This document shows, one piece after another, positions 2,896 to 47,817 of a DNA stretch of 50,505 bases; positions within the stretch are counted from its first letter, which is position 1; each line of letters begins with the position of its first letter. The notes beneath the pieces were generated by a model. It did no database searches, had not been told where the DNA came from, and saw only the letters and a list, made by a program, of their open reading frames with translations. Location: the sequence record MN850606.1; one strand, 5' to 3'. A program made the translations under genes and the position numbers. Origin of the DNA: Escherichia phage tuinn.

Positions 2896-5800
2896 ATGGC
2901 TAAATATATGATAAGCGGCAGTAAGGGAGGCGGTCAAAAGCCCTACGTGCCAAAAGAGATGGAAGATAACCTGATCTCGATAAACAAGATTAAAGTTTTG
3001 CTGGCTGTATCTGATGGCGAGTGCGATCCAGATTTTACGTTGCGTGATCTTTATCTTGATGATGTTCCGGTTATTGCCAGCGATGGCACTGTTAACTACG
3101 AGGGAGTTACGGCTGAATATCGACCAGGCACGCAGACGCAAGATTACATCCAGGGTTTTACTGACACATCAAGTGAGGTTACAGTTGCCAGAGATATTAC
3201 CGGAGACAATCCTTATGTTATTTCTGTTACAAATAAAAATCTATCTGCGGTAAGAATAAAGATCCTGATGCCAGTAGGCATTAAAACAGAGGATAACGGC
3301 GATCTTGTTGGCGTAAGGGTTGAGTATGCCGTAGATATGGCTGTTGATGGCGGTTCTTATAGCGAGGTTATGAGAGATGTAATTGACGGCAAGACAAGAT
3401 CAGGATACGACCGCAGCAGAAGGATTGATCTTCCTAAGTTTGATGAGCGCGTTTTAATCCGAGTAAAGCGACTGACTCCAGACAGCACATCTTCAAAGGT
3501 GACTGATAAAATCAAGCTGCAAAGTTACGCTGAGGTTGTTGATGCAAAATTCCGCTATCCTCTGACTGGACTTGTATTCGTAGAATTTGACAGCGAATTG
3601 TTTCCTACGCAAATCCCTAACATTTCTATAAAAAAGAAATGGAAGATTATTAATGTGCCAAGCAACTATGATCCAATATCAAGAGAATATCACGGGTCAT
3701 GGGATGGGACTTTTAAAAAAGCGTGGTCAAATAATCCTGCTTGGGTTCTTTATGATCTGGTGACAAATCAGCGTTATGGGCTTGATCAGCGAGAGTTAGG
3801 AATACAGATCGACAAGTGGAGCTTATACGAGGCGGGCGTTTACTGCGATCAGAAAGTTCCAGACGGTAAAGGCGGCACTGAGCCTCGCTACCTATGCGAT
3901 GTGGTGATTCAGAATCAAGTTGAGGCTTATCAGCTAATCCGTGACATTTGCTCAATCTTTCGCGGAATGAGTTTTTGGAATGGTGAGAGCTTATCAATCG
4001 TGATTGATAAGCCGCGCGATCCATCATACGTGTTTACTAATGAAAACGTCATCAACGGTGATTTTCAGTACACAAACGCAAGCGAAAAAAGCATGTACAC
4101 GCAGTGTAACGTGACGTTTGACGACGAACAAAACATGTATCAGCAGGACGTAGAGGGGGTTTTTGATACTGAGGCGGCATTACGATTTGGATACAACCCA
4201 ACAAGCATTACAGCGATCGGGTGTACGCGCAGGAGCGAAGCGAATCGTCGCGGTCGTTGGGTTTTGAAAACAAACCTTAGAAGCACTACTGTAAACTTTG
4301 CTACCGGACTAGAGGGGATGATTCCATCAATAGGTGATGTTATTGCTATCGCTGATAATTTTCAGAGTAGCAACCTAACGTTAAACCTATCGGGCCGAGT
4401 AATGGAAGTTTCAGGGCTGCAGGTTTTCGTTCCGTTTAAGGTTGATGCTCGCCCTGGTGATTTTATTATCATCAACAAGCCGGACGGCAAGCCAGTTAAG
4501 CGCACGATCTCAAAGGTTAGCGCAGACGGAAAAACCATTGAGTTAAATATTGGATTTGGTTTTGATGTTAAGCCTGATACTGTTTTTGCGATTGACCGTA
4601 CTGATCTTGCGTTGCAGCAATACGTTGTGACAACCATCAGCAAGGGTGATGACGAAAACGAGTTTACCTATTCAATCACGGCTGTAGAGTACGATCCGAA
4701 CAAATACGACGAGATTGATTATGGAGTAAACATTGATGACAGACCGACTTCAATTGTTCAGCCTGACGTGATGGCAGCGCCTGAGAACGTTAAGATCTCA
4801 TCTTATTCTCGCGTCGTGCAGGGTGTTAGCGTTGAGACTATGGTTGTTTCATGGGATAAGGTTCCTTACGCATCGCTTTATGAAATGCAGTGGCGAAAAG
4901 GTGATGGTAACTGGCTGAATACGCCGCAGACCGCTAACAAAGAGATAGAGGTAGAAGGGATTTACTCTGGCAACTACCAAGTAAGGGTGAGATCCGTTTC
5001 TGCAAGCGGTAACGCTTCCCCGTGGTCAAAGATTGCAACCGCCACTCTGACAGGTAAAGTTGGCGAGCCAGGAGCGCCGATTAATCTTACGGCTTCTGAT
5101 AATGAAGTTTTTGGCATTCGTGTCAAATGGGGTATGCCGGAAGGATCAGGCGATACGGCTTACATTGAGCTTCACCAATCGCCAGACGGAACGGTTGAAA
5201 ACTCAAGTCTGCTTACGCTGATTCCATATCCTCAATATGAGTATTGGCATAGCACGTTACCAGCGGGGCAAGTTGTATGGTATAGAATCCGCAGCGTTGA
5301 CAGAATAGGCAACGTTTCAAGCTGGACTGACTTTGTTCGCGGCATGGCGTCAGATGACGTTGAATCTGTTTTGGGCGACATTCTGGACAAGATTTTTGAT
5401 ACAGAAGCTGGTCAAGAAATCAAAGAGAACGCCATAGACAGTGCCAATAAAATCAAAGACCAGGCGCAATCAATCATACAGAACGCGTTGGCAAATGATG
5501 CAGATGTGAAGTGGACGCGAGTGCAAAACGGAAAGCGCAAGGCTGAATATGGTCATGCTCTTGAGCTTATCGCCAATGAAACAGAAGCGCGCGTAACTCA
5601 AATCGAAGAGTTAAGGGCTTCAATTGATGGCGAGATAACATCAAGCATCAAGACAGTGCAGGAGGCAATTGCCACTGAATCAGAGACGCGAGCGACTCAA
5701 ATTCAGCAGCTTGATTCTAAATTCACAAAAGAAATCGACGGCGTGCGCAAGGATACTTCTGCAAGCATTAGCGATGTAAGGCAGACAATCACTAACGAGT

Positions 5801-6474
5801 CAGAAGCGCGCGCTCAGGCCGTTCAGCAGCTTGACGCTAAGTTCACGAAAGAGATAAACGACCTTGACGGAGTTATCAAAACAGAAGTCGAGGCTAACAT
5901 CTCAGAAGTGAAACAGGCGATCGCCAATGAGACAGAGGCAAGGGTTCAGGCTGACCAGGCATTAACAGCACGATTTGGCGACGTTGAATCTGCATTGGTT
6001 GAAAAGTTGGATTCTTGGGCGAGCGTTGATTCAGTTGGCGCTAAATACGCTATGAAACTTGGCCTTACTTACAAAGGCCAGCAATACAGCGCAGGAATGG
6101 TGATGCAGCTTTCGCAGGGTTCATCCGGCCTTATCTCGCAAATTTTGTTTGATGCTAACAGGTTCGCCATTATGACTAGCTCTACTGGAGGGACTTTTAC
6201 TTTGCCTTTCGTGGTTGAGAATAATCAGGTTTTCATTAATAGTCTTTTGGTGAAGAACGGTTCAATCACTAATGCGATGATTGGTAATGTGATTCAGTCA
6301 AACAACTTTGTTCAAAACCAGCAAGGATGGAGGCTTGATAAAAACGGAATCTTTGAGAATTACGGATCAACGCCAGGAGAAGGAGCTACTAAATTCACCA
6401 ATGAGGGATTGAAGGTAAAAGATGCAAACGGAGTATTGAGGGTTGAAGTCGGAAGGATTACCGGAAGCTGGTAA
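2896..6474 (+). CDS. central tail fibre / host specificity protein, lambda gpJ-like
   Basis: 1190-aa ORF; N-terminus aligns by eye with lambda J; central FN3-like region; four tandem coiled-coil repeats; start 2896 chosen over TTG 2845. Confidence 0.85.
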   Translation: MAKYMISGSKGGGQKPYVPKEMEDNLISINKIKVLLAVSDGECDPDFTLRDLYLDDVPVIASDGTVNYEGVTAEYRPGTQTQDYIQGFTDTSSEVTVARDITGDNPYVISVTNKNLSAVRIKILMPVGIKTEDNGDLVGVRVEYAVDMAVDGGSYSEVMRDVIDGKTRSGYDRSRRIDLPKFDERVLIRVKRLTPDSTSSKVTDKIKLQSYAEVVDAKFRYPLTGLVFVEFDSELFPTQIPNISIKKKWKIINVPSNYDPISREYHGSWDGTFKKAWSNNPAWVLYDLVTNQRYGLDQRELGIQIDKWSLYEAGVYCDQKVPDGKGGTEPRYLCDVVIQNQVEAYQLIRDICSIFRGMSFWNGESLSIVIDKPRDPSYVFTNENVINGDFQYTNASEKSMYTQCNVTFDDEQNMYQQDVEGVFDTEAALRFGYNPTSITAIGCTRRSEANRRGRWVLKTNLRSTTVNFATGLEGMIPSIGDVIAIADNFQSSNLTLNLSGRVMEVSGLQVFVPFKVDARPGDFIIINKPDGKPVKRTISKVSADGKTIELNIGFGFDVKPDTVFAIDRTDLALQQYVVTTISKGDDENEFTYSITAVEYDPNKYDEIDYGVNIDDRPTSIVQPDVMAAPENVKISSYSRVVQGVSVETMVVSWDKVPYASLYEMQWRKGDGNWLNTPQTANKEIEVEGIYSGNYQVRVRSVSASGNASPWSKIATATLTGKVGEPGAPINLTASDNEVFGIRVKWGMPEGSGDTAYIELHQSPDGTVENSSLLTLIPYPQYEYWHSTLPAGQVVWYRIRSVDRIGNVSSWTDFVRGMASDDVESVLGDILDKIFDTEAGQEIKENAIDSANKIKDQAQSIIQNALANDADVKWTRVQNGKRKAEYGHALELIANETEARVTQIEELRASIDGEITSSIKTVQEAIATESETRATQIQQLDSKFTKEIDGVRKDTSASISDVRQTITNESEARAQAVQQLDAKFTKEINDLDGVIKTEVEANISEVKQAIANETEARVQADQALTARFGDVESALVEKLDSWASVDSVGAKYAMKLGLTYKGQQYSAGMVMQLSQGSSGLISQILFDANRFAIMTSSTGGTFTLPFVVENNQVFINSLLVKNGSITNAMIGNVIQSNNFVQNQQGWRLDKNGIFENYGSTPGEGATKFTNEGLKVKDANGVLRVEVGRITGSW
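5569..5985 (+). repeat. four tandem ~84-bp (28-aa) repeats inside gpJ-like gene
   Basis: Protein repeats IANETEARVTQI.., IATESETRATQI.., ITNESEARAQAV.., IANETEARVQAD.. Confidence 0.6.
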
Positions 6475-7721: not shown

Positions 7722-7741
7722 TTTAGCAAAAAGTGCTATTT
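7722..7741 (-). promoter_or_regulatory. conserved motif copy, upstream of lipoprotein gene
   Basis: TTTAGCAAAAAGTGCTATTT on + strand; TATAGT on minus strand at 7697..7702. Confidence 0.6.
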
Positions 7742-8000
7742 GTTATTTTTTGTTTTCCGGTGTTATCGAATTTAAGACGGCGTAAATTTAGCGCAAAATT
7801 TAGACAACATAAGATCAATAAACAATCAATAAAATAGATATATACATATAAAATCAATAGTTTATTTATTTATGTATGTATATTTGTTTTTTCTTGTTAT
7901 CTGCGTTTCTTGTGGTTTTGGTTGTTTGTGGTGATTTTTCTTTCTGAGTATCTGTATGTGCCATCATTCATGTGTATGTATATAATCCGGCGTATCTGAG
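7741..8000 (+). repeat. non-coding regulatory region, copy A of a duplicated element
   Basis: Shares TTTTCCGGTGT, TTATTTATTTAT, GT-rich tract and GTATGTATATAATCCGGCG with 28436..28665. Confidence 0.55.
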
Positions 8001-8108
8001 AGAGCATGGGAACAAGAAAAATAACACACATTAATCATTAACTTATGAGTCAAATCTGTTTTCTTGCCATCTGAGAACGTTTAGAAAACAGAAAAAACAA
8101 AACAGCTA

Positions 8109-8136
8109 TTGACTAAATCAACCAAATGGCTACAAT
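8109..8136 (+). promoter_or_regulatory. sigma70-like promoter of recombination operon
   Basis: TTGACT, 16-nt spacer, TACAAT. Confidence 0.55.
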
Positions 8137-10742: not shown

Positions 10743-11478
10743 AGTCTAACGTGGTTGGTTTGTTTACCAGTGCCGCTACAACCGCTTTTAGCTCGTCAAT
10801 TTCTTTTCTCATCTCATCGTTTTCCGCTTTCAGTTTCTTAACGTGGTGAATCAGTGGAACAGTGAGGCGGTCATACATAACGCCTTCCGCCACCATGCCA
10901 TTACTTGAAGCAATGGCAGGATCTTCTCCTTCTTGCAGCGGTCGCCAGTGAACGTACTCCGGCGCAATTTGTCCAACCTATTCCGCGATTAGCCCGTACC
11001 ATCCCCAATCTTTACGGTCGCTTTCACAAGTTGACCGATACCAAACAGGACGCATTTCAAGCATCAGATCCGCATATTCATCAATAACCGATTCTACGCT
11101 GCTCTTATAACGAGAAGAGGAAGTGGAGCGTAAAACTTGCGACACTCCAGCATTTGGATCAAGCCATAAGTTTGCTGATTGAGCGGTTGTGTTAATATTA
11201 AATAAATAAAATGCATCGTTACCAGTTAGGGGGTAAAAACTCCCACTATACCTTCCGCTATCCAACTCGGATGATAGATCAGTTTGTTTTAGATACGGTT
11301 TCAACTTATTGTCAACATCAGCAGTTGATGCTTTTCCTGCAACATCCTGTTTTAGTGTCGAAACGTCATTTTTCAGCTTCGTTATATCACCAGGAATAGT
11401 AGCAACATCCTGTTTTAGTGTTGAAACGTCATTTTTCAGCTTCGTTATATCACTAGGTATAACAGTGACTGTAGCCAT
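10741..11478 (-). CDS. tail fibre protein with C-terminal intramolecular chaperone (peptidase S74-like) domain, interrupted by in-frame TAG at 10978..10980
   Basis: Called ORF ends ..DWGWYGLIAE*; same frame continues VGQIAPEYV..LKAENDEMRKEIDELKAVVAALV to TAA at 10741, matching the S74 chaperone consensus. Confidence 0.6.
11344..11469 (-). repeat. tandem 63-bp repeat (2 units) inside tail fibre gene
   Basis: Units start 11344 and 11407; encode duplicated peptide I-P-x-DITKLKNDVSTLKQDVA. Confidence 0.7.
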
Positions 11479-11490
11479 TTTCCTAACTCC

Positions 11491-11769
11491 TTAAGCCCAT
11501 TCTCTAATAGGCTGATCTAACTCAACCACGTATCCATTAAAAATTACGGCATCAAACTTATCATCAATGATTCGCACATTAACGAAATAGCCGTCGTTCT
11601 TTCGCGCAATCTCCTCGCCATCGTCAGATCGTGCAATTACTGTATAAGTATTGCCGATTACATCGAGCAGGATTGCATCCTGAATGGATTCGTTATCATC
11701 CCAATTAATTTTTCCTAAAAAGGCCGAAAACTCGGCCTTGTCTGAAAATTTTAATGTTAAATCACGCAT
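11491..11769 (-). CDS. hypothetical protein between tail fibre genes
   Basis: ATG 11769 overlaps upstream stop; no motif. Confidence 0.4.
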   Translation of the reverse strand: MRDLTLKFSDKAEFSAFLGKINWDDNESIQDAILLDVIGNTYTVIARSDDGEEIARKNDGYFVNVRIIDDKFDAVIFNGYVVELDQPIREWA

Positions 11770-13745
11770 TAAACAATTTCCCCCAATTGATGATCTGTTA
11801 GTGCCTTGTGCCATATACGGAAGTTTCTAACGTGCCCGAAAAGATGACGTTCTCCAGTAGTTGTTTGTCCGCCAATCCTTATAGTAGCCGTTGATACTAT
11901 ATATCTCCATTCCGTTTTTGTTTCGCTTGATATTCTGGCATTACTTACACAACAAGTATTGTAATCACTCTTTACTCTCATTCCTATGATCATCTTTTTT
12001 AGTTTCGCATTCTCGTTAACCCTTCTGTTTGATTTACCTATATCGCAATAAGGGAATCCATCATTATCGCCCTTGGCAGATCCGAAAGCAAGAATAATTG
12101 CCGCACCAGATTGATGACCTCCAGTATCAAAAACACGAGGCGCAGCATTTGGCGTCATACTCCAGTTTTTATTAGCTTCCACAAGTAATGTAAACGGCAA
12201 ATTGTAAAGGTTGTTTTTTATTGGTAATGTAACCATATCGCTTGCCCGTGTTACTGGAGTCTCTTCTGTAATAATAAAGGATGAAGCGCACGCCCCACCT
12301 TCAACTTGAGGTGTCGCAATATAAATATAATCATCCGCGCCAGTGCCCACTCCTTTTGCTGGGGCATAATGAACCATTCCACCTATCATATTTTCTGTAT
12401 CAAGTGCCTTAATTGTCGCCTCAAAAAAGATCCATTTGCTTGCTTCATCTTTAACAGCCCTTGCAGTAATACGATTTGCAGCGACGCCAGTTTTTTCAAT
12501 TGATAAATCTGTCAGATTTACGTAAGCATCACCCAAAAATGCATAAGCAGATCCATCGTAGTTTTCAAATCGTAATCGGCATCTTAAATTTGGAGTCCCA
12601 CTTTGCGCCCTGCATGATATGGTTACATACTTTTCATTTCCTGTTACATCAAAACCTCTACTGCCGGAAACGGTTACTATGTTAATCGATGAAGTTTGCC
12701 CTACCATTTCTGGTTTTAATGTAAATTTTGCGTACTGGAATCCGAAATTATCCACACCTGATCTATCTAAGATCATATTTGGTGACTTGTTCCATTTTGA
12801 AGGATTGACGCTATTTATAAGAAGGTTTGCTCTTTGCCCCTCAATGAGCAGACCATCCTTTTCAAATCTAGGTTCATCAATAGCAGCATTAGTAAGCACC
12901 CCAGACTTATTAATGTAAGTAGCGGTTGATGCGCGTTTAAACTTAACAATCTTGTCACCTGGCATCGTGATCTCATCGTCACCTATAACAATCTTTTTAT
13001 ATGACGGAGAGAATCCGGTGATCATATCCAGGGAATCATTAAACGGTATCCACACGTCCGGCAACGGTTGCAATAAATCTTTGTAAGGTTCTGCGGCCTG
13101 CTTTGCGTATTCCTCCGCTTGATCTCGCGCACTTTCAGCTCCTGCCTTTGCAGTGTTCGCAGCGTCACGCGCGGATTCAGCACCAGACTTTGCTGCTTCA
13201 GCGCCAGTCTTTGCAGTGTTTGCAGCGTCGCGCGCGGATTCAGCGGCAGCCTTTGCAGTGTCAGCACCTTTCTTGCTATTCTCTGCATTTGTTGCGCTTT
13301 TCTTTGCGTTATTCTCGCTAGTTTTAGCTGCCTTCTGGCTTGCTGCGGCTGCGTCAGCATTTGTCTTTACGTCTTCCTGGATCTTCTGTAGCTTATCCCA
13401 ATCAAAATCCTTGATGATCTCAATAAATCCAGCAAACTCCGATTCCTTCCCCTGGTAATAACGCAACGTTTCCGCTACGTCTTGCGCAAGACCGTCAACA
13501 GTTAACGAGTCATGAAGCAAGATCAGGTAATTTGTCTTCTGTACTACCGCGCCGCCAGTAGTAATTGCGCGAATGCTTGTATCGCTAATCACTTCTGTAA
13601 TCACAGCAGCTTGCAAAGGTTGAGCAAGAAAGAAAATAGTTGCACCTGGGCGAATCAAGGTTAATTGCTCACGCCATTTTGTACCGTAACCAGTTACATA
13701 ACCTTGCGCGTCCATAGACGCTTGGCCTTGTCTGTAAATCGCCAT
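11769..13745 (-). CDS. side tail fibre protein (lambda Stf-like N-terminus, Ala-rich repeats, C-terminal receptor-binding domain)
   Basis: AGGAGG RBS before ATG 13745; Ala/Ser/Lys-rich repeats; C-terminal domain, possibly jellyroll-type. Confidence 0.75.
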   Translation of the reverse strand: MAIYRQGQASMDAQGYVTGYGTKWREQLTLIRPGATIFFLAQPLQAAVITEVISDTSIRAITTGGAVVQKTNYLILLHDSLTVDGLAQDVAETLRYYQGKESEFAGFIEIIKDFDWDKLQKIQEDVKTNADAAAASQKAAKTSENNAKKSATNAENSKKGADTAKAAAESARDAANTAKTGAEAAKSGAESARDAANTAKAGAESARDQAEEYAKQAAEPYKDLLQPLPDVWIPFNDSLDMITGFSPSYKKIVIGDDEITMPGDKIVKFKRASTATYINKSGVLTNAAIDEPRFEKDGLLIEGQRANLLINSVNPSKWNKSPNMILDRSGVDNFGFQYAKFTLKPEMVGQTSSINIVTVSGSRGFDVTGNEKYVTISCRAQSGTPNLRCRLRFENYDGSAYAFLGDAYVNLTDLSIEKTGVAANRITARAVKDEASKWIFFEATIKALDTENMIGGMVHYAPAKGVGTGADDYIYIATPQVEGGACASSFIITEETPVTRASDMVTLPIKNNLYNLPFTLLVEANKNWSMTPNAAPRVFDTGGHQSGAAIILAFGSAKGDNDGFPYCDIGKSNRRVNENAKLKKMIIGMRVKSDYNTCCVSNARISSETKTEWRYIVSTATIRIGGQTTTGERHLFGHVRNFRIWHKALTDHQLGEIV

Positions 13746-13760
13746 TTGTAAAATCCTCCT

Positions 13761-13779
13761 AAATAGCACTTTTTGCTAA
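13761..13779 (+). promoter_or_regulatory. conserved motif copy (fused to RBS of tail fibre gene on opposite strand)
   Basis: AAATAGCACTTTTTGCTAA. Confidence 0.6.
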
Positions 13780-13851: not shown

Positions 13852-14781
13852 TTATAGCAGTGATTCAGGCTTGTAGAGTTTTCTTTCTACGCCCTGTTTA
13901 AAATTATCGTTAACAGGCATCATTATGTCAAGCCCTCTTTCCTCTGCCGCGATTATCACATCACGATCATCTTTCCGGCAGACTACGCGCATTCTTCTTT
14001 CTCCTTTATATCTATGCGCAACCATTTCAAGATTTGAAGGAGTAAAACAGGCCCACACCTCTTGACCAGTTGATAAATGAACATGCTGAGAATCAACCCA
14101 ATCAAGGCACAAATAGATCGTCTTATCTGTACTACCTGTTTTAACAACAGATCCGCGCGTGTAGTCGCGAGCTAAAAACCAATCCTTTCCATCCTCATCA
14201 ATGAAAAGCACGTTACACATTTCATCATCCAGCCCGTCATCATGCACCAGGTGACAAGGTAGCGCGTGAATGTATCGACCATCCTTGACGCCGCAATCAT
14301 AATGACAATCTTCCGGCGGATATATCCCCTCATAAACGCTTAAAGGTGTGCGATCGAATTTTAATGTTTTTTCCATCACTTTTTCGCAACATTCATGACT
14401 TGCCTGTTTCCCGAACGAGTAACCAGAAGAACGCGAAGCGCGTTTGTTTGCTCTGATCCTGTAATCTTGTGGCACTTTTCCGAGGAAGCGGCCCAAAATG
14501 TTGATGGCCTCGCTGTAAGGTTCGCCAGTTAATTTCATTAACCAACCGATCCCCGTGTCGTTGCCGCACACGTTGCAGATCGCGCCTCCGTCGCCCTCTT
14601 CATTTAGCTTATCAGTCCATCTAAAACGATCCTTACCGCCGCAGTGTGGGCAAGGTTGATGCTTTTTGTTGAAAACATCGCTATGCAGCCCGCAAATGCT
14701 TTGTAGTGCTTCACGCCATAACCCCTTCATATATGGCAAAACATCTTCTTTCTGATAGGTCATAAAGTTTTCAGTATTCAT
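13852..14781 (-). CDS. DNA primase with zinc-ribbon
   Basis: CPHCGG..CNVCG zinc-binding motif; start 14781 with GAGG RBS. Confidence 0.65.
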   Translation of the reverse strand: MNTENFMTYQKEDVLPYMKGLWREALQSICGLHSDVFNKKHQPCPHCGGKDRFRWTDKLNEEGDGGAICNVCGNDTGIGWLMKLTGEPYSEAINILGRFLGKVPQDYRIRANKRASRSSGYSFGKQASHECCEKVMEKTLKFDRTPLSVYEGIYPPEDCHYDCGVKDGRYIHALPCHLVHDDGLDDEMCNVLFIDEDGKDWFLARDYTRGSVVKTGSTDKTIYLCLDWVDSQHVHLSTGQEVWACFTPSNLEMVAHRYKGERRMRVVCRKDDRDVIIAAEERGLDIMMPVNDNFKQGVERKLYKPESLL

Positions 14782-14793
14782 GGCAAACCTCAA

Positions 14794-14829
14794 TAAAAAA
14801 GCCCAGCAAATATTATCATTTCGCTGGGC
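14794..14829 (-). terminator. rho-independent terminator after HTH gene
   Basis: GCCCAGC..GCTGGGC hairpin with U-run on minus strand. Confidence 0.55.
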
Positions 14830-14836
14830 CTTATCA

Positions 14837-15313
14837 TTAGCTATTCGTGCTGTTATCACCTTTGTAGAATCTTCCGCCTGGTTCGTAGTCTGAATTTTTG
14901 ACTACGCGCAACATTTCGTATTTGTCGCAACGGGTAGTAAGAGGCTTGCCGTTAGAATCAAACCGCAGATCTGGACGACAAAACGAGGCGCGGTATCCTT
15001 TGCATCCATTATATTTGTAGTCGTTATGCACCTTTTGTGCTCCAGCGGCTGAAATCATACCACGCTTTCGCCATTGGTTAACGACTTGCTGAGATACGCG
15101 CAGACGTCGAGCCATAGCAGGAACACCGCCGTAATACTCGATCAGAATGTCAAGGCGAGATTTCAGGCTTGCTTTTACCTCATCTCGCAGGATAAGAAAT
15201 CCGGTTCGGTGTTTTCGTGGTTTTTTGTCTTTACCTCGTCGCGTTCCGTTGTTACCGTTAATAGTGCGCTTGTCGATCTCACCCGTAGATACTGCAATTC
15301 GTGCATCTTTCAT
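14837..15313 (-). CDS. helix-turn-helix DNA-binding protein, candidate transcription regulator
   Basis: HTH-like ARRLRVSQQVVNQWRKRG; basic N-terminus; GAGGTG RBS. Confidence 0.5.
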   Translation of the reverse strand: MKDARIAVSTGEIDKRTINGNNGTRRGKDKKPRKHRTGFLILRDEVKASLKSRLDILIEYYGGVPAMARRLRVSQQVVNQWRKRGMISAAGAQKVHNDYKYNGCKGYRASFCRPDLRFDSNGKPLTTRCDKYEMLRVVKNSDYEPGGRFYKGDNSTNS

Positions 15314-22336: not shown

Positions 22337-22658
22337 CGCCCATCTCCCCTATTCTAGCCATATCCCTGATCCAGTCGTTGCGCATACCATCCAGGCTATA
22401 CAATTCGAATCCGAAAGGCCGCTTTGACGATCCTTTGGACCAGTATTTTCCGCAGACTCCATCTATATAACCAGCCGTCATCATTCTTGCGCAAAATTCC
22501 TTAGATGCAAGGCTGGCGAACATTCTCGGCGTAAGTCCGGCGGCCCGTGCGAGCCGCTCACATTCTCTATGCTGATAGATAAATTTGGCTATGTGCTGCC
22601 TGTTAAACCAATCGTATGACTCACACCATTTATACAGATCAAGCAAAAACATAATCAT
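22263..22658 (-). CDS. hypothetical protein
   Basis: 131-aa ORF overlapping stop of upstream gene. Confidence 0.4.
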   Translation of the reverse strand: MIMFLLDLYKWCESYDWFNRQHIAKFIYQHRECERLARAAGLTPRMFASLASKEFCARMMTAGYIDGVCGKYWSKGSSKRPFGFELYSLDGMRNDWIRDMARIGEMGDDELFQAKANRQDLEALRRKFNIT

Positions 22659-24235
22659 CCCAGCAGTATTGGATTGACAAAAATAACACCATTAATCACA
22701 CAAACATAATTTCTTTCTTCCAGCATTGGCAGTAAGTGCCCTTCTATCCTTTTCATTACGCCAGCCTGACCAACGAAAGGTTTTACCTTTCTCGCTGATT
22801 CGTACAGGGCGCGGATATTCAGAATCCCTTTATTAGCCTTGCCGTGCCTCGTGATCAATTCAATCAATTTACCCATCTCAGCATCATCACCAGCATAACC
22901 AGAAGCATTTGCGGCGCTAATGTATGTTTTGCTCAATTCCTGAAACATGATCAACGCCTCTTGCATTGTTTCCACGTCGATCTCTTTCGACTTCTGCGGG
23001 TATCCGGCAGGATTAAACCAGTTACGGATAACATGCAGGACGGAAGCAAGCCTGATCACCTGTTTATCCATTTTACCCAGCGCACCGCGTAACATTGTAT
23101 GAGAATACTTTCCTCCGTCTGCAAGATGCGGTTCCATATCCTGGCGAGCAATGTTGAGCACTCGCATAGCTGAACGGCTTATTTTCAGCGATATATTTGA
23201 TTCGCTCATGATGTTATGCACCAATTGATAATATTGGGCTTTCAATTCAGAATCCACCGCCTCATAGGTAGAATCACCATTTTCATCAATGAATGAGCGA
23301 CGGCCTAAGAATGATTCCTCTCGGACCAACAAAAAACGCTCACTAACACCGATGCCTCGCGATCCAGCGTCCATGATTCCGCTTATCGTTTCATCCTGGG
23401 CTATGACGCTCATACATCCAAGCGCGCGAAAACTCATATTATTGTCAGCATTAGCACGGGCAATTGATACGTGACCATTATCCCACGCCTTAAGCACTAA
23501 CTCACTGTTAGTCTTCCTTTCGCTATTTGCATAGGTCAAGCCTAACAGACTGTTAATACTTGTTGCTTCATCAGATATTACGGCAAAGTTACCTTGCTTG
23601 TTGTTGATTTTCGCCAAGCCTTCTGGAGTTGTATCTGAAACAGGAAAAGTTATATCACACATTTTTTCCAGCTTTTCCTCCAGATCCTCTTTTTCCTGGT
23701 ATAGAGATTCCATATCAGCGCCGGATCTTTCGCTTTTCATCTCCTTTGCAAGACCTGCCAGCTTTGCCTGTATTTTCTTTCTTTCCTTGCGGCGTTGCTC
23801 GTTGATCTTCTCAACTTCCGCAATCATCGGAGCAATAGCCATGCTGTTGATCGCAGATTTACCAGTTGACGGCGGCTGGCTTGTAACGACGTAAAGCGCA
23901 GTCGGCTGATCGGTTCCGTGATAGTCAACCGTAAAGCGTCCAAGCATAGCGGCAGAAATGCAGCCGATAAAGTGCATGTAAGCAGATGATTCAGGGAATT
24001 GAACGGATCGCGCAATGCTGCGTGATAACTTGCCGACAACATCAATATCATTACCAAGAGAAATAACGGGGTAGCGATCGTGACCGCTATTCACATCCTT
24101 TACGTCGCCCCAAAAGCTGGACGACTGGCGATAGCCGTTAGCCTGAATTGATACGCGAACTGGCGAAAGGTTCTGGCTTTCAGCCATAGCGATTATTTGT
24201 TGTGGAGTTAATTTGTTCGTTTCTAATGAAAACAT
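22655..24235 (-). CDS. P-loop NTPase of unknown function
   Basis: Deviant Walker A SQPPSTGKS, Walker B-like AVISDEAT, charged coiled-coil insert; AGGAG RBS; family not identifiable by eye. Confidence 0.55.
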   Translation of the reverse strand: MFSLETNKLTPQQIIAMAESQNLSPVRVSIQANGYRQSSSFWGDVKDVNSGHDRYPVISLGNDIDVVGKLSRSIARSVQFPESSAYMHFIGCISAAMLGRFTVDYHGTDQPTALYVVTSQPPSTGKSAINSMAIAPMIAEVEKINEQRRKERKKIQAKLAGLAKEMKSERSGADMESLYQEKEDLEEKLEKMCDITFPVSDTTPEGLAKINNKQGNFAVISDEATSINSLLGLTYANSERKTNSELVLKAWDNGHVSIARANADNNMSFRALGCMSVIAQDETISGIMDAGSRGIGVSERFLLVREESFLGRRSFIDENGDSTYEAVDSELKAQYYQLVHNIMSESNISLKISRSAMRVLNIARQDMEPHLADGGKYSHTMLRGALGKMDKQVIRLASVLHVIRNWFNPAGYPQKSKEIDVETMQEALIMFQELSKTYISAANASGYAGDDAEMGKLIELITRHGKANKGILNIRALYESARKVKPFVGQAGVMKRIEGHLLPMLEERNYVCVINGVIFVNPILLG

Positions 24236-26627: not shown

Positions 26628-26824
26628 TAGATGATCTCCATGTATGTTTCAAAGCCATTTAACTTGAACAGGCCGTTTTCACATTTGCGAACGTTCCAAG
26701 TTAGCCCTGAGTGGTACGCCTCCATATCATCAAGGTCAATGGTGATTTCAGCACCTTTCTTAAACAAACCTTTTTCGTGAGACTTGTCGCGCTTAACAAC
26801 TTTAACATCAACCTGATTTTCCAT
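26627..26824 (-). CDS. hypothetical protein
   Basis: 65-aa ORF downstream of motif and TATAGT. Confidence 0.4.
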   Translation of the reverse strand: MENQVDVKVVKRDKSHEKGLFKKGAEITIDLDDMEAYHSGLTWNVRKCENGLFKLNGFETYMEII

Positions 26825-26878
26825 CTTTAAATCCTCGTTTGTTGTCGATGCGCTTACTATACCAATCAGCAGCGCATA

Positions 26879-27599: not shown

Positions 27600-27853
27600 T
27601 TTTTCTTCTCCTGCAATAAGCAAACATCATTGATAAAATCAGCACGGCCCTTAATGTTGCTGATGTGGAACGTCTTTTCAGCGTACAGGCCATCACCTTC
27701 AATCACGATCATTACGCGAGTCGGTTTATTCACTGGCGCACACGAAAAGAGTGGTCGCGCCGGAAGAAATTTAGTGGTCACATCCAGGTTAGCCCTGGCG
27801 GCCCTGCAAAACGCCTCCGCCAGATCCAAATCATTTTCGGTAATCACCGCCAT
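27587..27853 (-). CDS. hypothetical protein
   Basis: 88-aa ORF. Confidence 0.4.
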   Translation of the reverse strand: MAVITENDLDLAEAFCRAARANLDVTTKFLPARPLFSCAPVNKPTRVMIVIEGDGLYAEKTFHISNIKGRADFINDVCLLQEKKKCWM

Positions 27854-28125
27854 TACTTCTTGATCTCCTTACTGATAAATTTCAGCACCTGGCGCAAGAA
27901 AACTTCGTTGTTGATAGTCGCTGGCAATTCTTCTTTCACTTCTTGCGGCAGATAGATATTGCCGTGCCAGGTCAAGCAATCGTAGTTGATACGATAAGAG
28001 CAAAGCCACTCGCAATCGTTATCTGCTTCCCAAATGCAGAGTTGCAGAACATCGCCAAAATCTTCAACAGTCAGATCCAGACCGTGACGCTTAGCGAAAT
28101 TGAAAGTGGTTTTGCTGATGTTCAT
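27853..28125 (-). CDS. hypothetical early protein
   Basis: First gene of minus-strand early block; AGGAG RBS. Confidence 0.45.
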   Translation of the reverse strand: MNISKTTFNFAKRHGLDLTVEDFGDVLQLCIWEADNDCEWLCSYRINYDCLTWHGNIYLPQEVKEELPATINNEVFLRQVLKFISKEIKK

Positions 28126-28185
28126 TTACTATCTCCTGAGCGGTTCGTTTCGATGTGTGTAATGTACCCGATCAGGTGGCATGAG

Positions 28186-28206
28186 TTTTAACAAAAAGTG
28201 CTATTT
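28186..28206 (-). promoter_or_regulatory. conserved motif copy, candidate promoter of minus-strand early block
   Basis: TTTTAACAAAAAGTGCTATTT; TACATT and CATCGAAACGAAC box follow on minus strand. Confidence 0.6.
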
Positions 28207-28435
28207 GACGGTTATCGCCAGGATTGCGATCGAAATAATCAAAAGTAATCATTCGTAATCAAATCACGTCAAAATGATGATTGCCTTTGCAAATTTGATG
28301 AGAAAAGTAATCACGTTTAATCATTGGTTGCAGGGGAGATAGTGAAACCTTCCCCTCTTGCCTCACTTTTCCGCCTGGCTGTCAGTGGTTGTTGTCTTTT
28401 GTTCACCCCTGTTACCGATTTCAGGCGGCGTGTTT

Positions 28436-28665
28436 CCGCGCGGTTTTCCGGTGTAGCGAAAACGAAAAAAACAAAAAAATCCCTCTATAATACATTGAAA
28501 ATAAAGATTATTTATTTATATATATCTATAATGTTTTCTTTTTGTTCTCACTGTTACAGTGCTTTTTGTTGGTTATGGTGTGGTTGTGTGTGGGTATATA
28601 TGGATAGTTGCGCGCGCGGCGGATTGCATATGTATATATACTTTTTCCGGCGGATTGCGTTAACA
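28436..28665 (+). repeat. non-coding regulatory region, copy B of duplicated element
   Basis: Shared segments with 7741..8000; A-tracts, two TATAAT boxes, GCGCGCGCG and ATATGTATATATA tracts, CGGCGGATTGC twice. Confidence 0.55.
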
Positions 28666-28759
28666 GCGTGAACATAAAAATAACAGCAGCGAAATCAATA
28701 ACTTGCGCATGATTTTGTAGTTTTTCGATATTGGTAACGTTTTGAATACAACAAAAACA

Positions 28760-28787
28760 TTGACACGCACCAAATAGCTTTTATAAT
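28760..28787 (+). promoter_or_regulatory. near-consensus sigma70 promoter of plus-strand early block
   Basis: TTGACA, 16-nt spacer, TATAAT. Confidence 0.65.
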
Positions 28788-28818
28788 GCGCCAACAGTCA
28801 ACAACTGGAGGAAAGGAA

Positions 28819-29280
28819 ATGGAACAGAAGACCACTAAGGACTATTGCGATTGGCTTCGCGAGCTTGGTCGCCGCCTGGCTAGTGGCGATATTGAAGAGT
28901 ATAAAATGTCACTAATTGACCTGGCCGGAATGTTAAGCGGTGACGACTGCTACAAGATCACGCGCAGTTCATCCTACAGCCGGACCATTATCAACCGCGT
29001 TCCAGAAGTAAGGGCCGCAGGTCGGGTAAGCATCAAGGTAGAGGAAACGGAAGATGATAAATTTTACGTTTTCCGCATGGTCCGCGAATCGAAAAGGAAA
29101 ATCATCACACCCGAAGAATTGCCAGCCATCAAGGCAAGGGCGATCAAAAAGTTTGCCGATCGCATACTGGCAGCAATCCCGAATATCGTTGACCTGGAAG
29201 GGGATAAACTGGCTGGGGCTTGCGAGGGCGTAAGCCGCTACCAGGATATGATCCGCGAAATCATCAAAGAGGAAGAGTAA
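28819..29280 (+). CDS. hypothetical early protein
   Basis: GGAGGAAAGG RBS before ATG 28819. Confidence 0.45.
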   Translation: MEQKTTKDYCDWLRELGRRLASGDIEEYKMSLIDLAGMLSGDDCYKITRSSSYSRTIINRVPEVRAAGRVSIKVEETEDDKFYVFRMVRESKRKIITPEELPAIKARAIKKFADRILAAIPNIVDLEGDKLAGACEGVSRYQDMIREIIKEEE

Positions 29281-32288: not shown

Positions 32289-32343
32289 AGATCATCGGGC
32301 TTGCTGTATAGTAAGCCCATCAACAACAAACGAGGATTAAATC

Positions 32344-32607
32344 ATGGCTAACAAGATCGAGTTTTTTAAAGCTGTAGACATTATCGACGGCGCGCCTAGC
32401 TTCTTTGCTATCCATTCTATTGACGGCAAGGATATTGGGTACAACGTTATCCGTCGAGATGGAATATCAAAAATTAGTGACCTGGTAGGCCATATTGTGT
32501 CAAACGGGAAATGCGCATGGCCCGATTCGCCACGAGAGCCGCGCCGCCGCGACATGGTAGAGCCTGTTCTGCTTTACACTCTGGTAGTAGAGGGAGAAAA
32601 TAAATGA
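32344..32607 (+). CDS. hypothetical protein
   Basis: 87-aa ORF. Confidence 0.4.
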   Translation: MANKIEFFKAVDIIDGAPSFFAIHSIDGKDIGYNVIRRDGISKISDLVGHIVSNGKCAWPDSPREPRRRDMVEPVLLYTLVVEGENK

Positions 32608-43711: not shown

Positions 43712-43730
43712 TTTAACAAAAAGTGCTATC
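43712..43730 (-). promoter_or_regulatory. conserved motif copy, inverted relative to late operon
   Basis: TTTAACAAAAAGTGCTATC on +. Confidence 0.6.
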
Positions 43731-47466: not shown

Positions 47467-47485
47467 TTTTAACAAAAAGTGCTAT
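47467..47485 (-). promoter_or_regulatory. conserved motif copy fused to RBS of tail chaperone gene (inverted)
   Basis: TTTTAACAAAAAGTGCTAT followed by AAGGAG and ATG 47500. Confidence 0.6.
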
Positions 47486-47499
47486 AAGGAGATCTTAAG

Positions 47500-47817
47500 A
47501 TGGCAAAGATGAAACTAACGTTAGGCCCACTGCCTGATTTTAAGCTGCCTGTTTCTTTCGTGCTTCCAAATGGTGATGAGCAAGTTATTGTTTTTACCGT
47601 GCGCCACAAGAAGGCAAGCGAAATTCACGAACGATACACGGCAGAAAAGCCGATGAGCGACGTAGAAATGATCACCTTCCTTGCTTCCGGTTGGGATCTG
47701 GAAGATGAATTTAACGAGGAAAACGTTGCTAAATTGCTGGATTATTACCCGTCTGCGTCATTATCGCTGACTGGTCATTATATGAAAGCACTTGCGGGGC
47801 AGCGGGTAAAAAACTAA
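47500..47817 (+). CDS. tail assembly chaperone (lambda gpG-like)
   Basis: Position between major tail and tape measure; ends at slippery site. Confidence 0.7.
   Translation: MAKMKLTLGPLPDFKLPVSFVLPNGDEQVIVFTVRHKKASEIHERYTAEKPMSDVEMITFLASGWDLEDEFNEENVAKLLDYYPSASLSLTGHYMKALAGQRVKN

What the first reader, a model, noticed from the sequence alone, without database searches (positions are those of the whole stretch)
7741..8000. Duplicated ~230-260-bp non-coding region (copy at 28436..28665) with alternating purine-pyrimidine tracts
The two largest intergenic regions share blocks in the same order and orientation: TTTTCCGGTGT; TTATTTATTTAT with TATAAT-like boxes; a GT-rich tract (TGTGGTTTTGGTTGTTTGTGGTG / TGGTGTGGTTGTGTGTGGG); GTATGTATATA..CCGGCG. 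Copy B also has GCGCGCGCG next to ATATGTATATATA (Z-DNA-prone), CGGCGGATTGC twice, and GTAATCA repeats at 28243..28314. Each sits between divergent transcription units. This looks like a duplicated control region: promoter cluster, origin of replication, or host-factor binding site. About 300 nt downstream of the TATAAT boxes could also give an untranslated leader or small RNA.
Basis: seen in the sequence. Interest (0 to 1): 0.6.

Follow-up and report, generated by a model that had tools for sequence, protein, structure and literature searches.

The report
Paired AT-rich repeat elements, T1-like phages
This T1-like phage genome carries two related ~370-bp non-coding elements, conserved across the whole phage family and containing the two most easily melted DNA stretches in the genome; they are most likely the family's still-unmapped replication origins, but this is inferred, not shown.

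Summary
The duplication is real and larger than reported. Window 7736-8102 (A) and 28387-28762 (B) are collinear paralogs (local alignment z = 15-30 against shuffles).

The window is a complete Drexlerviridae (T1-like) coliphage genome. The same A/B pair is present in all six genomes tested: this phage, T1, TLS, Stevie, Rtp and a Klebsiella phage.

Each element has the same layout:
- oppositely oriented arrays of TGTT(C/A)NC repeats, phased every 9-10 bp;
- a central AT-rich core, flanked by those arrays;
- a consensus sigma-70 early promoter directly after the right end.

In all six genomes the A and B cores are the two least stable duplex segments of the whole genome.

Several readings were tested and not supported:
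- no conserved internal promoter;
- no conserved RNA structure and no Rfam match;
- no DnaA boxes or GATC clusters;
- only weak Z-DNA potential.

The repeats resemble the TGTTCACC iterons of satellite phage P4, and the phage primase is homologous to the P4 alpha primase domain. No P4-type origin-binding domain was found. The phage does encode an MCM-like AAA+ helicase that ends in a winged helix, which is a candidate binder.

Best reading (about 0.4): a pair of iteron-plus-unwinding-element replication origins. Main rival (about 0.3): an upstream architectural or regulatory region for the early promoters. I found no published description of the pair, and two papers state that no origin has been found in T1-like phages.

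The parts
7723..7739 (-). Copy of the family-wide 21-nt repeat (ATAGCACnnnTTGnTAA), pointing at the leftward cor-like lipoprotein gene. It flanks element A but is not part of the A/B duplication.
   Evidence: 18 copies in the window against 0.12 expected. Described for TLS/T1 with function unknown (PMC11447400).
7736..8102 (+). Element A: the full shared ~370-bp non-coding element.
   Evidence: nhmmer family profile positions 2-380, E = 4e-77. Paralogous to B.
7740..7768 (+). A block 1: three TGTT repeats phased about 10 bp apart (TTGTTATTTTTTGTTTTCCGGTGTTATCG).
   Evidence: Profile alignment. Spacing statistics.
7824..7918 (+). A blocks 3-4: AT-rich core (TTATTTATTTATGTATGTATAT) followed by phased TTGTT repeats. 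This is the best-conserved block and the dyad centre (about 7884). I propose it as the DNA unwinding element.
   Evidence: 7824-7883 is the least stable 60-bp duplex in the genome: dG -57.7, against a genome mean of -81.9 (sd 5.0). The reverse-strand self-hit of the profile places the dyad.
7910..7968 (+). A block 5: GT-rich tract, variable in length between copies.
   Evidence: Alignment.
7969..7998 (+). A block 6: alternating purine-pyrimidine run (CATGTGTATGTATATA) followed by CCGGCG.
   Evidence: Second-longest alternating run in the genome. Conserved block.
8008..8029 (+). A block 7: phased AACA repeats (GGGAACAAGAAAAATAACACAC), in inverted orientation relative to block 1.
8030..8102 (+). 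A blocks 8-9: a partly conserved IHF-consensus-like site and an A-rich, UP-element-like tract just upstream of the promoter.
   Evidence: IHF consensus is strict in 11/41 copies and relaxed in 30/41.
8109..8136 (+). Sigma-70 promoter (TTGACT-16-TACAAT) of the exonuclease VIII / Erf / SSB operon. It abuts element A.
   Evidence: Conserved at the same position in 41/43 related loci. Equivalent to TLS promoter P51.
28188..28204 (-). Copy of the 21-nt repeat, pointing at the leftward early genes. It flanks region B.
28210..28386 (+). Spacer specific to B, with GTAATCA repeats and a GGGGAG...CTCCCC hairpin; absent from A. In T1 and TLS, record position 1 (the pac-proximal end) falls in the equivalent stretch.
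28387..28762 (+). Element B: the full shared ~375-bp non-coding element.
   Evidence: nhmmer profile positions 4-380, E = 7e-81.
28388..28418 (+). B block 1: phased TGTT repeats, including TGTTCACC (28400) and TGTTACC (28410).
28483..28575 (+). B blocks 3-4: AT-rich core (TTATTTATTTATATATATCTATAAT) plus phased TTGTT repeats. I propose it as the unwinding element.
   Evidence: 28483-28542 is the second least stable 60-bp duplex in the genome, dG -58.5.
28609..28655 (+). B block 6: GCGCGCGCG, a 17-nt alternating run (TGCATATGTATATATAC) and CCGGCG, with CGGCGGATTGC on both sides.
28659..28686 (+). B block 7: phased GTTAACA / GTGAACA / ATAACA repeats, inverted relative to block 1.
28760..28787 (+). 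Perfect-consensus sigma-70 promoter (TTGACA-16-TATAAT) of the rightward early operon. Its first gene (DUF7174) starts at 28819.
   Evidence: Equivalent to TLS promoter P01.
22655..24235 (-). DUF3987 helicase: AAA+ core with MCM-like fold neighbours and a C-terminal winged helix (residues about 450-520). It is a candidate trans-acting binder and helicase for the elements; this link is inferred only.
13852..14859 (-). Primase homologous to the N-terminal primase domain of P4 alpha.
   Evidence: BLASTP E = 6e-15 to alpha residues 20-263. Zn_Ribbon_Prim.

Best explanation
A and B are two paralogous copies of a cis-acting nucleoprotein assembly site, and most likely they are the replication origins of T1-like phages.

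Proposed mechanism:
1. After infection, host RNA polymerase fires the consensus sigma-70 early promoters that abut each element.
2. A phage protein binds the TGTT(C/A)NC repeats. The candidate is the MCM-like AAA+ helicase with its C-terminal winged helix. The repeats lie on one face of the helix (9-10 bp period), in two oppositely oriented arrays.
3. The AT-rich core between the arrays, which is the least stable duplex in the genome, melts. Negative supercoiling behind the outward-firing promoters may help, and perhaps an IHF-type bend.
4. Helicase is loaded in both directions, and the P4-alpha-type primase primes synthesis.
5. Concatemers for headful packaging are then made by the RecE/Erf system encoded just downstream of A.

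What is shown: the paralogy, the family-wide conservation, the phased inverted repeat arrays, the extreme duplex instability, the position next to early promoters, and the absence of promoters, RNA structure and coding in the element.

What is inferred: every step involving protein binding, melting and initiation.
For: - Real, collinear duplication: z = 15-30.
- Both copies are present and significantly similar in 12 of 14 genomes, plus Rtp (z = 31) and a Klebsiella phage (z = 33).
- In all six complete genomes the two least stable 60-bp and 150-bp duplex windows are the A and B cores. They lie about 4.8 sd from the genome mean and are clearly separated from rank 3.
- Same-orientation TGTT/AACA pairs peak at 9-10 bp (125 against about 4 expected) and at 19-20 bp (57 against about 4). 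There are about 15 motifs per element, against about 7 expected.
- The arrays are inverted around the core: the profile hits the element's own reverse strand. The arms do not co-vary as base pairs (12.9 against 11.8), so the symmetry is a repeated site rather than a stem.
- The layout matches P4 ori/crr read directly from the P4 record: TGTTCACC-type iterons at 9-11 bp spacing, in both orientations, next to A/T-rich DNA, in two distant cis regions. The 7-mer TGTTCAC is enriched in the elements, e.g. TLS 4 against 0.06 expected.
- The phage primase is homologous to the P4 alpha primase domain (E = 6e-15).
- The phage encodes an AAA+ helicase with MCM-like fold neighbours and a C-terminal winged helix.
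- No origin is known for this family: TLS paper PMC11447400 and SU57 paper PMC7718038.
- Rival readings failed: internal promoters, RNA, oriC-type features.
Against: - There is no experimental datum on initiation, binding or melting; everything is architecture.
- Each element is fused in a fixed orientation to an early promoter. Two of the only three sigma-70 promoters reported in TLS are these. This fits a transcriptional role equally well.
- The exact P4-type 7-mer is missing from 15 of 41 copies, and copy A in this window has only degenerate versions.
- No P4-type origin-binding domain was found.
- With six genomes, neither candidate DNA-binding protein visibly tracks the repeat variant.
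- The elements are not adjacent to the replication genes.
- GC skew is uninformative because it follows gene orientation.
- Flanking by divergent transcription is not universal.
Confidence: 0.4

Rival explanations
1. Upstream architectural or regulatory region of the early promoters. The phased A/T tracts and TGTT repeats would form curved or wrapped DNA, with or without IHF, Fis, H-NS or a phage regulator. This would boost host RNA polymerase recruitment to the two main early promoters, or later shut them off. The AT-rich core would be a by-product of that design.
For: - The element always sits in one orientation, with its A-rich right end (block 9) directly against the -35 of a consensus sigma-70 promoter. 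That promoter is conserved in 41/43 loci.
- In TLS, two of only three sigma-70 promoters are these.
- A partly conserved IHF-like site lies about 100 bp upstream of the promoter.
- Helical phasing is typical of bent upstream activating DNA.
Against: - The best-conserved and least stable part lies 230-300 bp upstream of the promoter. That is far beyond UP-element or usual activator range.
- The quasi-palindromic arrangement around the core has no obvious role for a one-directional promoter.
- The third early promoter (regulator-primase) has no such element: only 88 bp of intergenic DNA there.
- The IHF consensus is strict in only 11/41 copies.
Confidence: 0.3
2. Module-boundary recombination sites. 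Conserved non-coding 'linker' DNA with GT-rich, Chi-like tracts would promote homologous exchange of gene modules between co-infecting T1-like phages, or recombination-dependent replication and concatemer formation.
For: - Mosaic breakpoints fall inside B. Several phages match window 28126-28572 at about 85% and then lose similarity.
- A relative whose A copy is 96% identical has a B copy only 62% identical.
- Rtp and the Klebsiella phage show high A/B similarity, which suggests gene conversion.
- GT-rich tracts with GTGGTG(G) are present.
- A sits directly upstream of the recE/erf operon.
Against: - No exact Chi site (GCTGGTGG) was seen.
- The GT-rich tract is the least conserved block.
- Recombination linkers would not need phased inverted repeat arrays or extreme duplex instability.
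- Mosaicism at early-gene regions is common and could simply be a consequence of the element's position.
Confidence: 0.1
3. Packaging (pac) recognition region, duplicated.
For: T1 and TLS records start (pac-proximal end) inside the region-B equivalent. The TLS authors place pac there.
Against: Position 1 of T1 and TLS maps to the B-specific spacer, 120-220 bp to the left of the shared element, and A has no such spacer. A second pac in mid-genome would conflict with the single pac fragment reported for TLS.
Confidence: 0.05
4. A non-coding RNA or a long 5' leader transcribed from the TATAAT-like boxes.
For: Single-sequence folding of A on the + strand is below shuffles (z = -3.05). Window A has a private promoter-like site at 7958-7986.
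Against: - No Rfam family.
- 0 consensus pairs over 20 diverse copies.
- z-scores are inconsistent: B+ -0.62, A- -1.66.
- No conserved promoter on either strand.
- The palindromic DNA explains the one good z-score.
Confidence: 0.04

Closest known systems
Satellite phage P4 ori and crr (type 1 iterons TGTTCACC bound by the alpha primase-helicase)
   Same: - Two distant cis regions in one small genome.
- Short repeats with the core TGTTCAC, spaced 9-11 bp, in both orientations, next to A/T-rich DNA.
- The phage primase is homologous to the alpha primase domain.
   Different: - The exact iteron is absent from many copies and degenerate in window A.
- No alpha-type helicase or origin-binding domain.
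- The elements are quasi-palindromic around a much longer AT-rich core and are fused to early promoters.
- P4 crr is two 120-bp direct repeats.
Bacillus phage SPP1 oriL / oriR (own knowledge: two distant origins, each with repeated boxes bound by G38P next to an AT-rich region, in a pac-type siphovirus)
   Same: Pac-packaging siphovirus with two paralogous, distant, repeat-plus-AT-rich sites.
   Different: No sequence or protein homology was tested. SPP1 oriL lies inside the initiator gene, whereas these elements are intergenic and promoter-linked.
Herpes simplex virus oriS / oriL (own knowledge: AT-centred palindromes with inverted initiator sites, between divergent promoters, in several copies)
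   Same: Inverted binding-site arrays around an AT-rich centre, located in promoter regions, in multiple paralogous copies.
   Different: Unrelated virus, unrelated proteins and different site sequence. This is an analogy of design only.
The 21-nt direct repeats of TLS/T1-like phages (aaATAGCACnnnTTGnTAAAA)
   Same: A copy flanks the left side of both A and B. This is also a family-wide non-coding motif whose function is unresolved.
   Different: It is a separate, much shorter motif present 18 times in the genome. It is not what makes A and B similar: z = 30 after excluding it.
E. coli oriC-type (DnaA-dependent) origins
   Same: Oppositely oriented arrays of phased short sites and an AT-rich unwinding region.
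   Different: No DnaA boxes, and GATC is depleted rather than clustered.

Membership tests
Iteron-plus-DUE replication origin (phage/plasmid type) | Several short repeats of one motif, phased with the DNA helix | tested here: met
   TGTT/AACA same-orientation spacing peaks at 9-10 and 19-20 bp (125 and 57 pairs against about 4 expected each). About 15 motifs per element.
Iteron-plus-DUE replication origin (phage/plasmid type) | Adjacent AT-rich region of unusually low duplex stability | tested here: met
   The A and B cores are the two least stable segments genome-wide in six genomes.
Iteron-plus-DUE replication origin (phage/plasmid type) | A cognate initiator protein that binds the repeats | not testable with these tools
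   Candidates only: an AAA+ helicase with a C-terminal winged helix and a Cro-like HTH protein. The six-genome co-variation check was inconclusive.
Iteron-plus-DUE replication origin (phage/plasmid type) | Replication actually initiates there | not testable with these tools
   Needs marker-frequency analysis, 2D gels or an origin-trap plasmid.
P4 ori/crr system | Type 1 iteron TGTTCACC | tested here: inconclusive
   The core 7-mer TGTTCAC is enriched (window 2 against 0.04; TLS 4 against 0.06; Stevie 3 against 0.09). It is present in 26/41 copies and absent in 15/41. The full 8-mer occurs once in the window (28400).
P4 ori/crr system | Alpha protein with helicase and a C-terminal origin-binding domain | tested here: not met
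oriC-type DnaA-dependent origin | DnaA boxes (TTWTNCACA) and clustered GATC | tested here: not met
   0 DnaA boxes in the elements of five genomes. GATC is 0-1 per element pair, against 5-6 per kb genome-wide.
Sigma-70 promoter cluster | -35/-10 pairs conserved inside the element | tested here: not met
   The weight-matrix scan of 41 copies found no conserved site on either strand. Only the known promoters just outside the element scored.
Structured non-coding RNA | Rfam match or conserved, covarying secondary structure | tested here: not met
   0 Rfam hits. 0 consensus pairs. No arm covariation.
pac site | Coincides with the packaging start | tested here: not met
   Position 1 of T1 and TLS maps to the B-specific spacer, outside the shared element and absent from A. 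This is indirect, taken from record coordinates.
Z-DNA-forming tract | Long alternating purine-pyrimidine run, preferably CG/TG type | tested here: inconclusive
   The two longest runs in the genome are at block 6 of B (17 nt) and A (16 nt), but they are short and TA-rich. Runs of 12 nt or more are not enriched (10 against about 12 in shuffles).
Drexlerviridae 21-nt repeat | Match to ATAGCACnnnTTGnTAA, intergenic | tested here: met
   7723-7739 and 28188-28204, both on the - strand. They flank the duplicated element and are not part of it.

The most novel reading that the evidence does not exclude
These elements are the long-sought replication origins of T1 and all Drexlerviridae. This would be a dual-origin system in which P4-like phased iterons, arranged as inverted arrays around the genome's weakest duplex, are recognised by a stand-alone MCM-like AAA+ helicase through its C-terminal winged helix, with a separate P4-alpha-type primase. 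In effect it would be a 'split alpha' replication module coupled to the early promoters.
Probability: 0.35. Interest if true: 0.7.

Novelty: new variant of a known kind. Interest (0 to 1): 0.55.

Why it matters
T1 is one of the original Delbruck T phages, and T1-like phages are common laboratory and fermentation contaminants as well as phage-therapy candidates. Even so, their replication origin has never been located; two genome papers say so explicitly. A conserved pair of elements with origin-like design gives a concrete, cheaply testable candidate. If confirmed, it would complete the replication map of a classical phage. It would also supply origin cassettes for engineering and for conditional replicons, and it would link T1-type replication to the P4/MCM-like helicase world. 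If the elements instead prove to be early-promoter enhancers, they would define how a phage with no RNA polymerase of its own, and only about three sigma-70 promoters, takes over host transcription. Either way, annotators should stop calling spurious ORFs in these regions.

Tried and rejected
1. Low-complexity artefact: rejected by dinucleotide and block shuffles.
2. The shared 21-nt repeat as the cause of the similarity: rejected, because z = 30 after excluding it.
3. Base-paired arms (RNA stem or cruciform): my impression that the block-1 and block-7 variants co-vary within a copy did not survive testing (within-copy 12.9, cross-copy 11.8).
4. Structured RNA: no Rfam hit, 0 alifold pairs, inconsistent z-scores.
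5. Internal sigma-70 promoters: none conserved.
6. Coding: no ORF of 50 aa or more in A. The 115-aa TTG ORF 28324-28671 in B has no counterpart in A, and I treat it as spurious.
7. The Cro-like 'transcriptional regulator' as a P4-alpha-type origin-binding domain: it is Cro/YdaS-like.
8. Homology of the DUF3987 helicase to the P4 alpha helicase or OBD: none.
9. Relatives of the element in plasmids or E. coli chromosomes: none.
10. GC skew as an origin marker: it follows gene orientation only.
11. DnaA boxes and GATC clusters: absent.
12. Concerted evolution as a general rule: A copies mostly group with A and B with B, with paralog identity of 52-64%. Rtp and the Klebsiella phage are exceptions.
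13. Co-variation of repeat type with the helicase winged helix or the regulator HTH: uninformative with six genomes.
14. Literature: searches on T1 origin, replication and transcriptomes found nothing relevant. The Rtp genome paper is not held, so an earlier passing mention cannot be excluded.

Full report
**What the window is.** Region A and its flanks are 99.8% identical to Escherichia phage orkinos and close to swan01, tinuso and others. The gene order matches T1, TLS and Rtp: terminase, head, tail, cor-like lipoprotein, exonuclease VIII/Erf/SSB, tail fibre, primase, Cro-like regulator, helicase, Dam, lysis, DUF3987 helicase, small early genes. The window is therefore a complete, circularly permuted Drexlerviridae genome.

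**The observation.**
- For the two whole intergenic regions, with the shared 21-nt motif removed, it scores 65 against 12.7 +/- 1.7 (z = 30).
- A harsher shuffle that keeps local composition still gives z = 10.6.
- The homology is longer than reported. A profile built from several copies matches 7736-8102 and 28387-28762 end to end.

**What surrounds the elements.**
- On the left of each element lies one copy of the genome-wide 21-nt repeat ATAGCACnnnTTGnTAA. It occurs 18 times, against 0.12 expected, and here it points at the leftward genes. The repeat has been described for TLS and T1, with its function listed as an open question (PMC11447400). It is separate from the duplication.
- On the right, each element runs straight into a strong sigma-70 promoter: A, TTGACT-16-TACAAT at 8109-8136; B, a perfect TTGACA-16-TATAAT at 28760-28787. 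The A promoter is conserved at the same distance from exonuclease VIII in 41 of 43 related loci.
- In TLS the authors found only three intergenic sigma-70 promoters. Two of them (P01 523-549 and P51 29110-29137) abut the B and A elements that I map at 117-524 and 28745-29099. The third drives the regulator-primase operon.
- Region B has an extra 177-bp spacer (28210-28386) that holds the GTAATCA repeats. Position 1 of the T1 and TLS records, which is the pac-proximal end, falls in the equivalent spacer and not in the shared element.

**The pair is family-wide.**
- I collected 43 loci upstream of exonuclease VIII homologs, about 20 loci next to the gene on the left of B, and whole genomes of T1, TLS, Stevie, Rtp and a Klebsiella phage.
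- A and B are significantly similar within 12 of 14 genomes, and also in Rtp (z = 31, including a perfect 40-mer) and the Klebsiella phage (z = 33). The two failures are contigs in which B wraps around the contig end.
- A 380-position nhmmer profile hits both copies end to end in most genomes.
- A copies mostly group with A copies and B with B. Paralog identity is 52-64%, so the duplication is old.
- B is more mosaic than A. A relative whose A copy is 96% identical has a B copy only 62% identical, and several phages lose similarity to the window partway through B.
- No relative of the element exists in 72,556 plasmids or 5,426 E. coli genomes.

**Anatomy.** From left to right:
1. Three TGTT repeats, about 10 bp apart.
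2. CCGGCGTAAAT.
3. AACAAAAAGAACAAA plus a TATAAT-like string.
4. The best-conserved block, AGtTTAtTTATtTATATATATcTATtTGTTTTTT, running into more phased TTGTT repeats.
5. A GT-rich tract of variable length.
6. A (TA/TG)n run followed by CCGGCG.
7. Phased GTGAACA / GGAACA / AACA repeats, i.e. block 1 inverted.
8. A partly conserved IHF-consensus-like site.
9. An A-rich tract against the promoter's -35.

Three properties stand out:
- The repeats are phased. Same-orientation TGTT or AACA pairs sit 9-10 bp apart (125 pairs, about 4 expected) and 19-20 bp apart (57, about 4 expected). There are about 15 motifs per element, against about 7 expected.
- The element is a large imperfect palindrome. The profile matches the element's own reverse strand, with the dyad at about 7884 in A.
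- The arms do not co-vary as pairing partners: within-copy complementarity is 12.9 and cross-copy is 11.8. The symmetry is therefore the same site in two orientations, not a stem.

**Physical property.** I computed nearest-neighbour duplex stability for six genomes from three subfamilies and two host genera. In every one, the two least stable 60-bp and 150-bp windows of the whole genome are the cores of A and B. In the window the values are -57.7 and -58.5 kcal/mol, against a genome mean of -81.9 (sd 5.0); the third-ranked site is at -64.6.

**Readings that failed.**
- Promoter cluster: no conserved sigma-70 promoter on either strand in 41 distinct copies. The TATAAT-like strings have no -35 partner. 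Window A has one private promoter-like site (7958-7986) that is not conserved.
- RNA: no Rfam family and no consensus structure at all in 20 diverse copies. The folding z-scores are -3.05, -1.66, -0.62 and -2.05 for A+, A-, B+ and B-, which is what a DNA palindrome would give.
- oriC-type origin: no DnaA boxes, and GATC is depleted rather than clustered.
- Z-DNA: the two longest alternating purine-pyrimidine runs in the genome are at block 6 of B (17 nt) and A (16 nt). They are short and TA-rich, and such runs are not enriched overall. The GCGCGCGCG run is specific to this lineage.
- GC skew: it follows gene orientation and says nothing about origins.

**Comparison with P4.** I remembered that P4 ori and crr carry TGTTCACC iterons, and I checked this against the P4 record.
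- P4 has 6 type 1 repeats at ori and 10 at crr. They are TGTTCACC with variants, spaced 9-11 bp, in both orientations, beside A/T-rich DNA, in two regions about 4.7 kb apart.
- The 7-mer TGTTCAC is enriched in the Drexlerviridae elements: window 2 against 0.04 expected, TLS 4 against 0.06, Stevie 3 against 0.09. However, 15 of 41 copies have none, and window A has only degenerate forms. The general site is TGTT(C/A)NC.
- T1 and Rtp favour GTTAC/TGTTAC variants.
- The window primase is homologous to the primase domain of P4 alpha (E = 6e-15). Nothing in the window matches the alpha helicase or its origin-binding domain by BLAST or hhalign.

The resemblance is therefore one of design, plus one shared enzyme domain. 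It is not membership of the P4 system.

**Candidate binders.**
- The DUF3987 'DNA helicase' (22655-24235, - strand) gives a confident model (pLDDT 88.9). Its nearest solved folds are MCM helicases: 46 hits at E <= 1e-3, though TM is only about 0.35.
- The other candidate is the Cro/YdaS-like HTH protein next to the primase.
- With only six genomes, neither protein's recognition region tracks the repeat variant in an interpretable way.

**Interpretation.** The data fit a nucleoprotein assembly site in which phased sites in two inverted arrays flank the weakest duplex in the genome. That is the standard design of a bidirectional origin. P4 ori/crr shows it in sequence here; SPP1 oriL/oriR and herpesvirus oriS/oriL show it by my own knowledge of those systems. 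No origin has been found in T1-like phages. I therefore rank 'paired replication origins' first, at about 0.4.

The strongest rival, at about 0.3, is that the element is the extended upstream region of the two main early promoters, because it is always fused to them in one orientation. The two readings are not exclusive. Blocks 8-9 probably do serve the promoter, and outward transcription would help melt the core.

Lesser rivals are recombination or mosaic-junction sites (about 0.1), pac (about 0.05) and RNA (about 0.04).

**Novelty.** I found no description of this pair. GenBank records leave the regions unannotated or fill them with hypothetical ORFs; one record marks a 34-bp 'repeat_region'. 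The TLS re-annotation discusses only the 21-nt repeats and states that no origin-like repeats were found. The T1 and Rtp genome papers are not in the library, so a passing mention cannot be excluded.

Noticed in passing
window 43713-43729 and 47469-47485 (- strand): Two copies of the 21-nt repeat lie in the late structural region in the orientation opposite to the flanking + strand genes. The TLS paper says the repeats follow the direction of transcription. At 47469-47485 the inverted repeat directly precedes the ribosome-binding site of the gene starting at 47500.
   Followed up: no
window 28210-28386; T1 (L004) 48675-48836 plus 1-220; TLS (L005) 49708-49902 plus 1-116: The B-specific spacer carries GTAATCA/GATTAC-type short repeats in this phage and in T1, and other tandem repeats in TLS. 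It contains position 1 of the T1 and TLS records, so it is a candidate for the pac recognition region.
   Followed up: partly
window 22655-24235 (- strand): The DUF3987 'DNA helicase' of T1-like phages models as an AAA+ ATPase with MCM-like fold neighbours and a C-terminal winged helix. The primase matches only the N-terminal half of longer primase-helicase families (phrog_510, profile positions 6-316 of 667).
   Followed up: partly
window 7736-8102 and 28387-28762, and equivalents in T1, TLS, Stevie: GATC is strongly depleted in the elements (0-1 site per pair of elements) although these Dam-encoding phages carry 5-6 GATC per kb elsewhere.
   Followed up: no
window 11339-11461 and 13134-13259: Tandem 63-bp repeats (95% and 84% identical) lie inside the long - strand ORFs at 10978-11478 and 11769-13769, in the tail-fibre region. 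A roughly 100-130-bp periodic repeat lies at 5569-5944 in the large tail protein gene.
   Followed up: no
window 26808-26862 and 32306-32360: A 55-nt inverted repeat (80%) covers the leader, ribosome-binding site and first codons of genes on opposite strands either side of region B. This suggests a duplicated translation-initiation region (I4).
   Followed up: no
window 28324-28671 (+), and records such as OR896819 and OR912983: Several GenBank records annotate 2-5 'hypothetical proteins' across regions A and B. The 115-aa TTG ORF in B has no counterpart in A, and the regions behave as non-coding DNA, so these calls are probably spurious.
   Followed up: partly
L066 (164.7-kb contig), L069 (120.9-kb contig), L078-L091 (30-36-kb contigs): Homologs (45-66% identity) of the small gene to the left of B (27853-28125) also occur in much larger viral contigs and in a set of about 35-kb elements. 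In many of those loci the gene lies at the very end of the contig.
   Followed up: no
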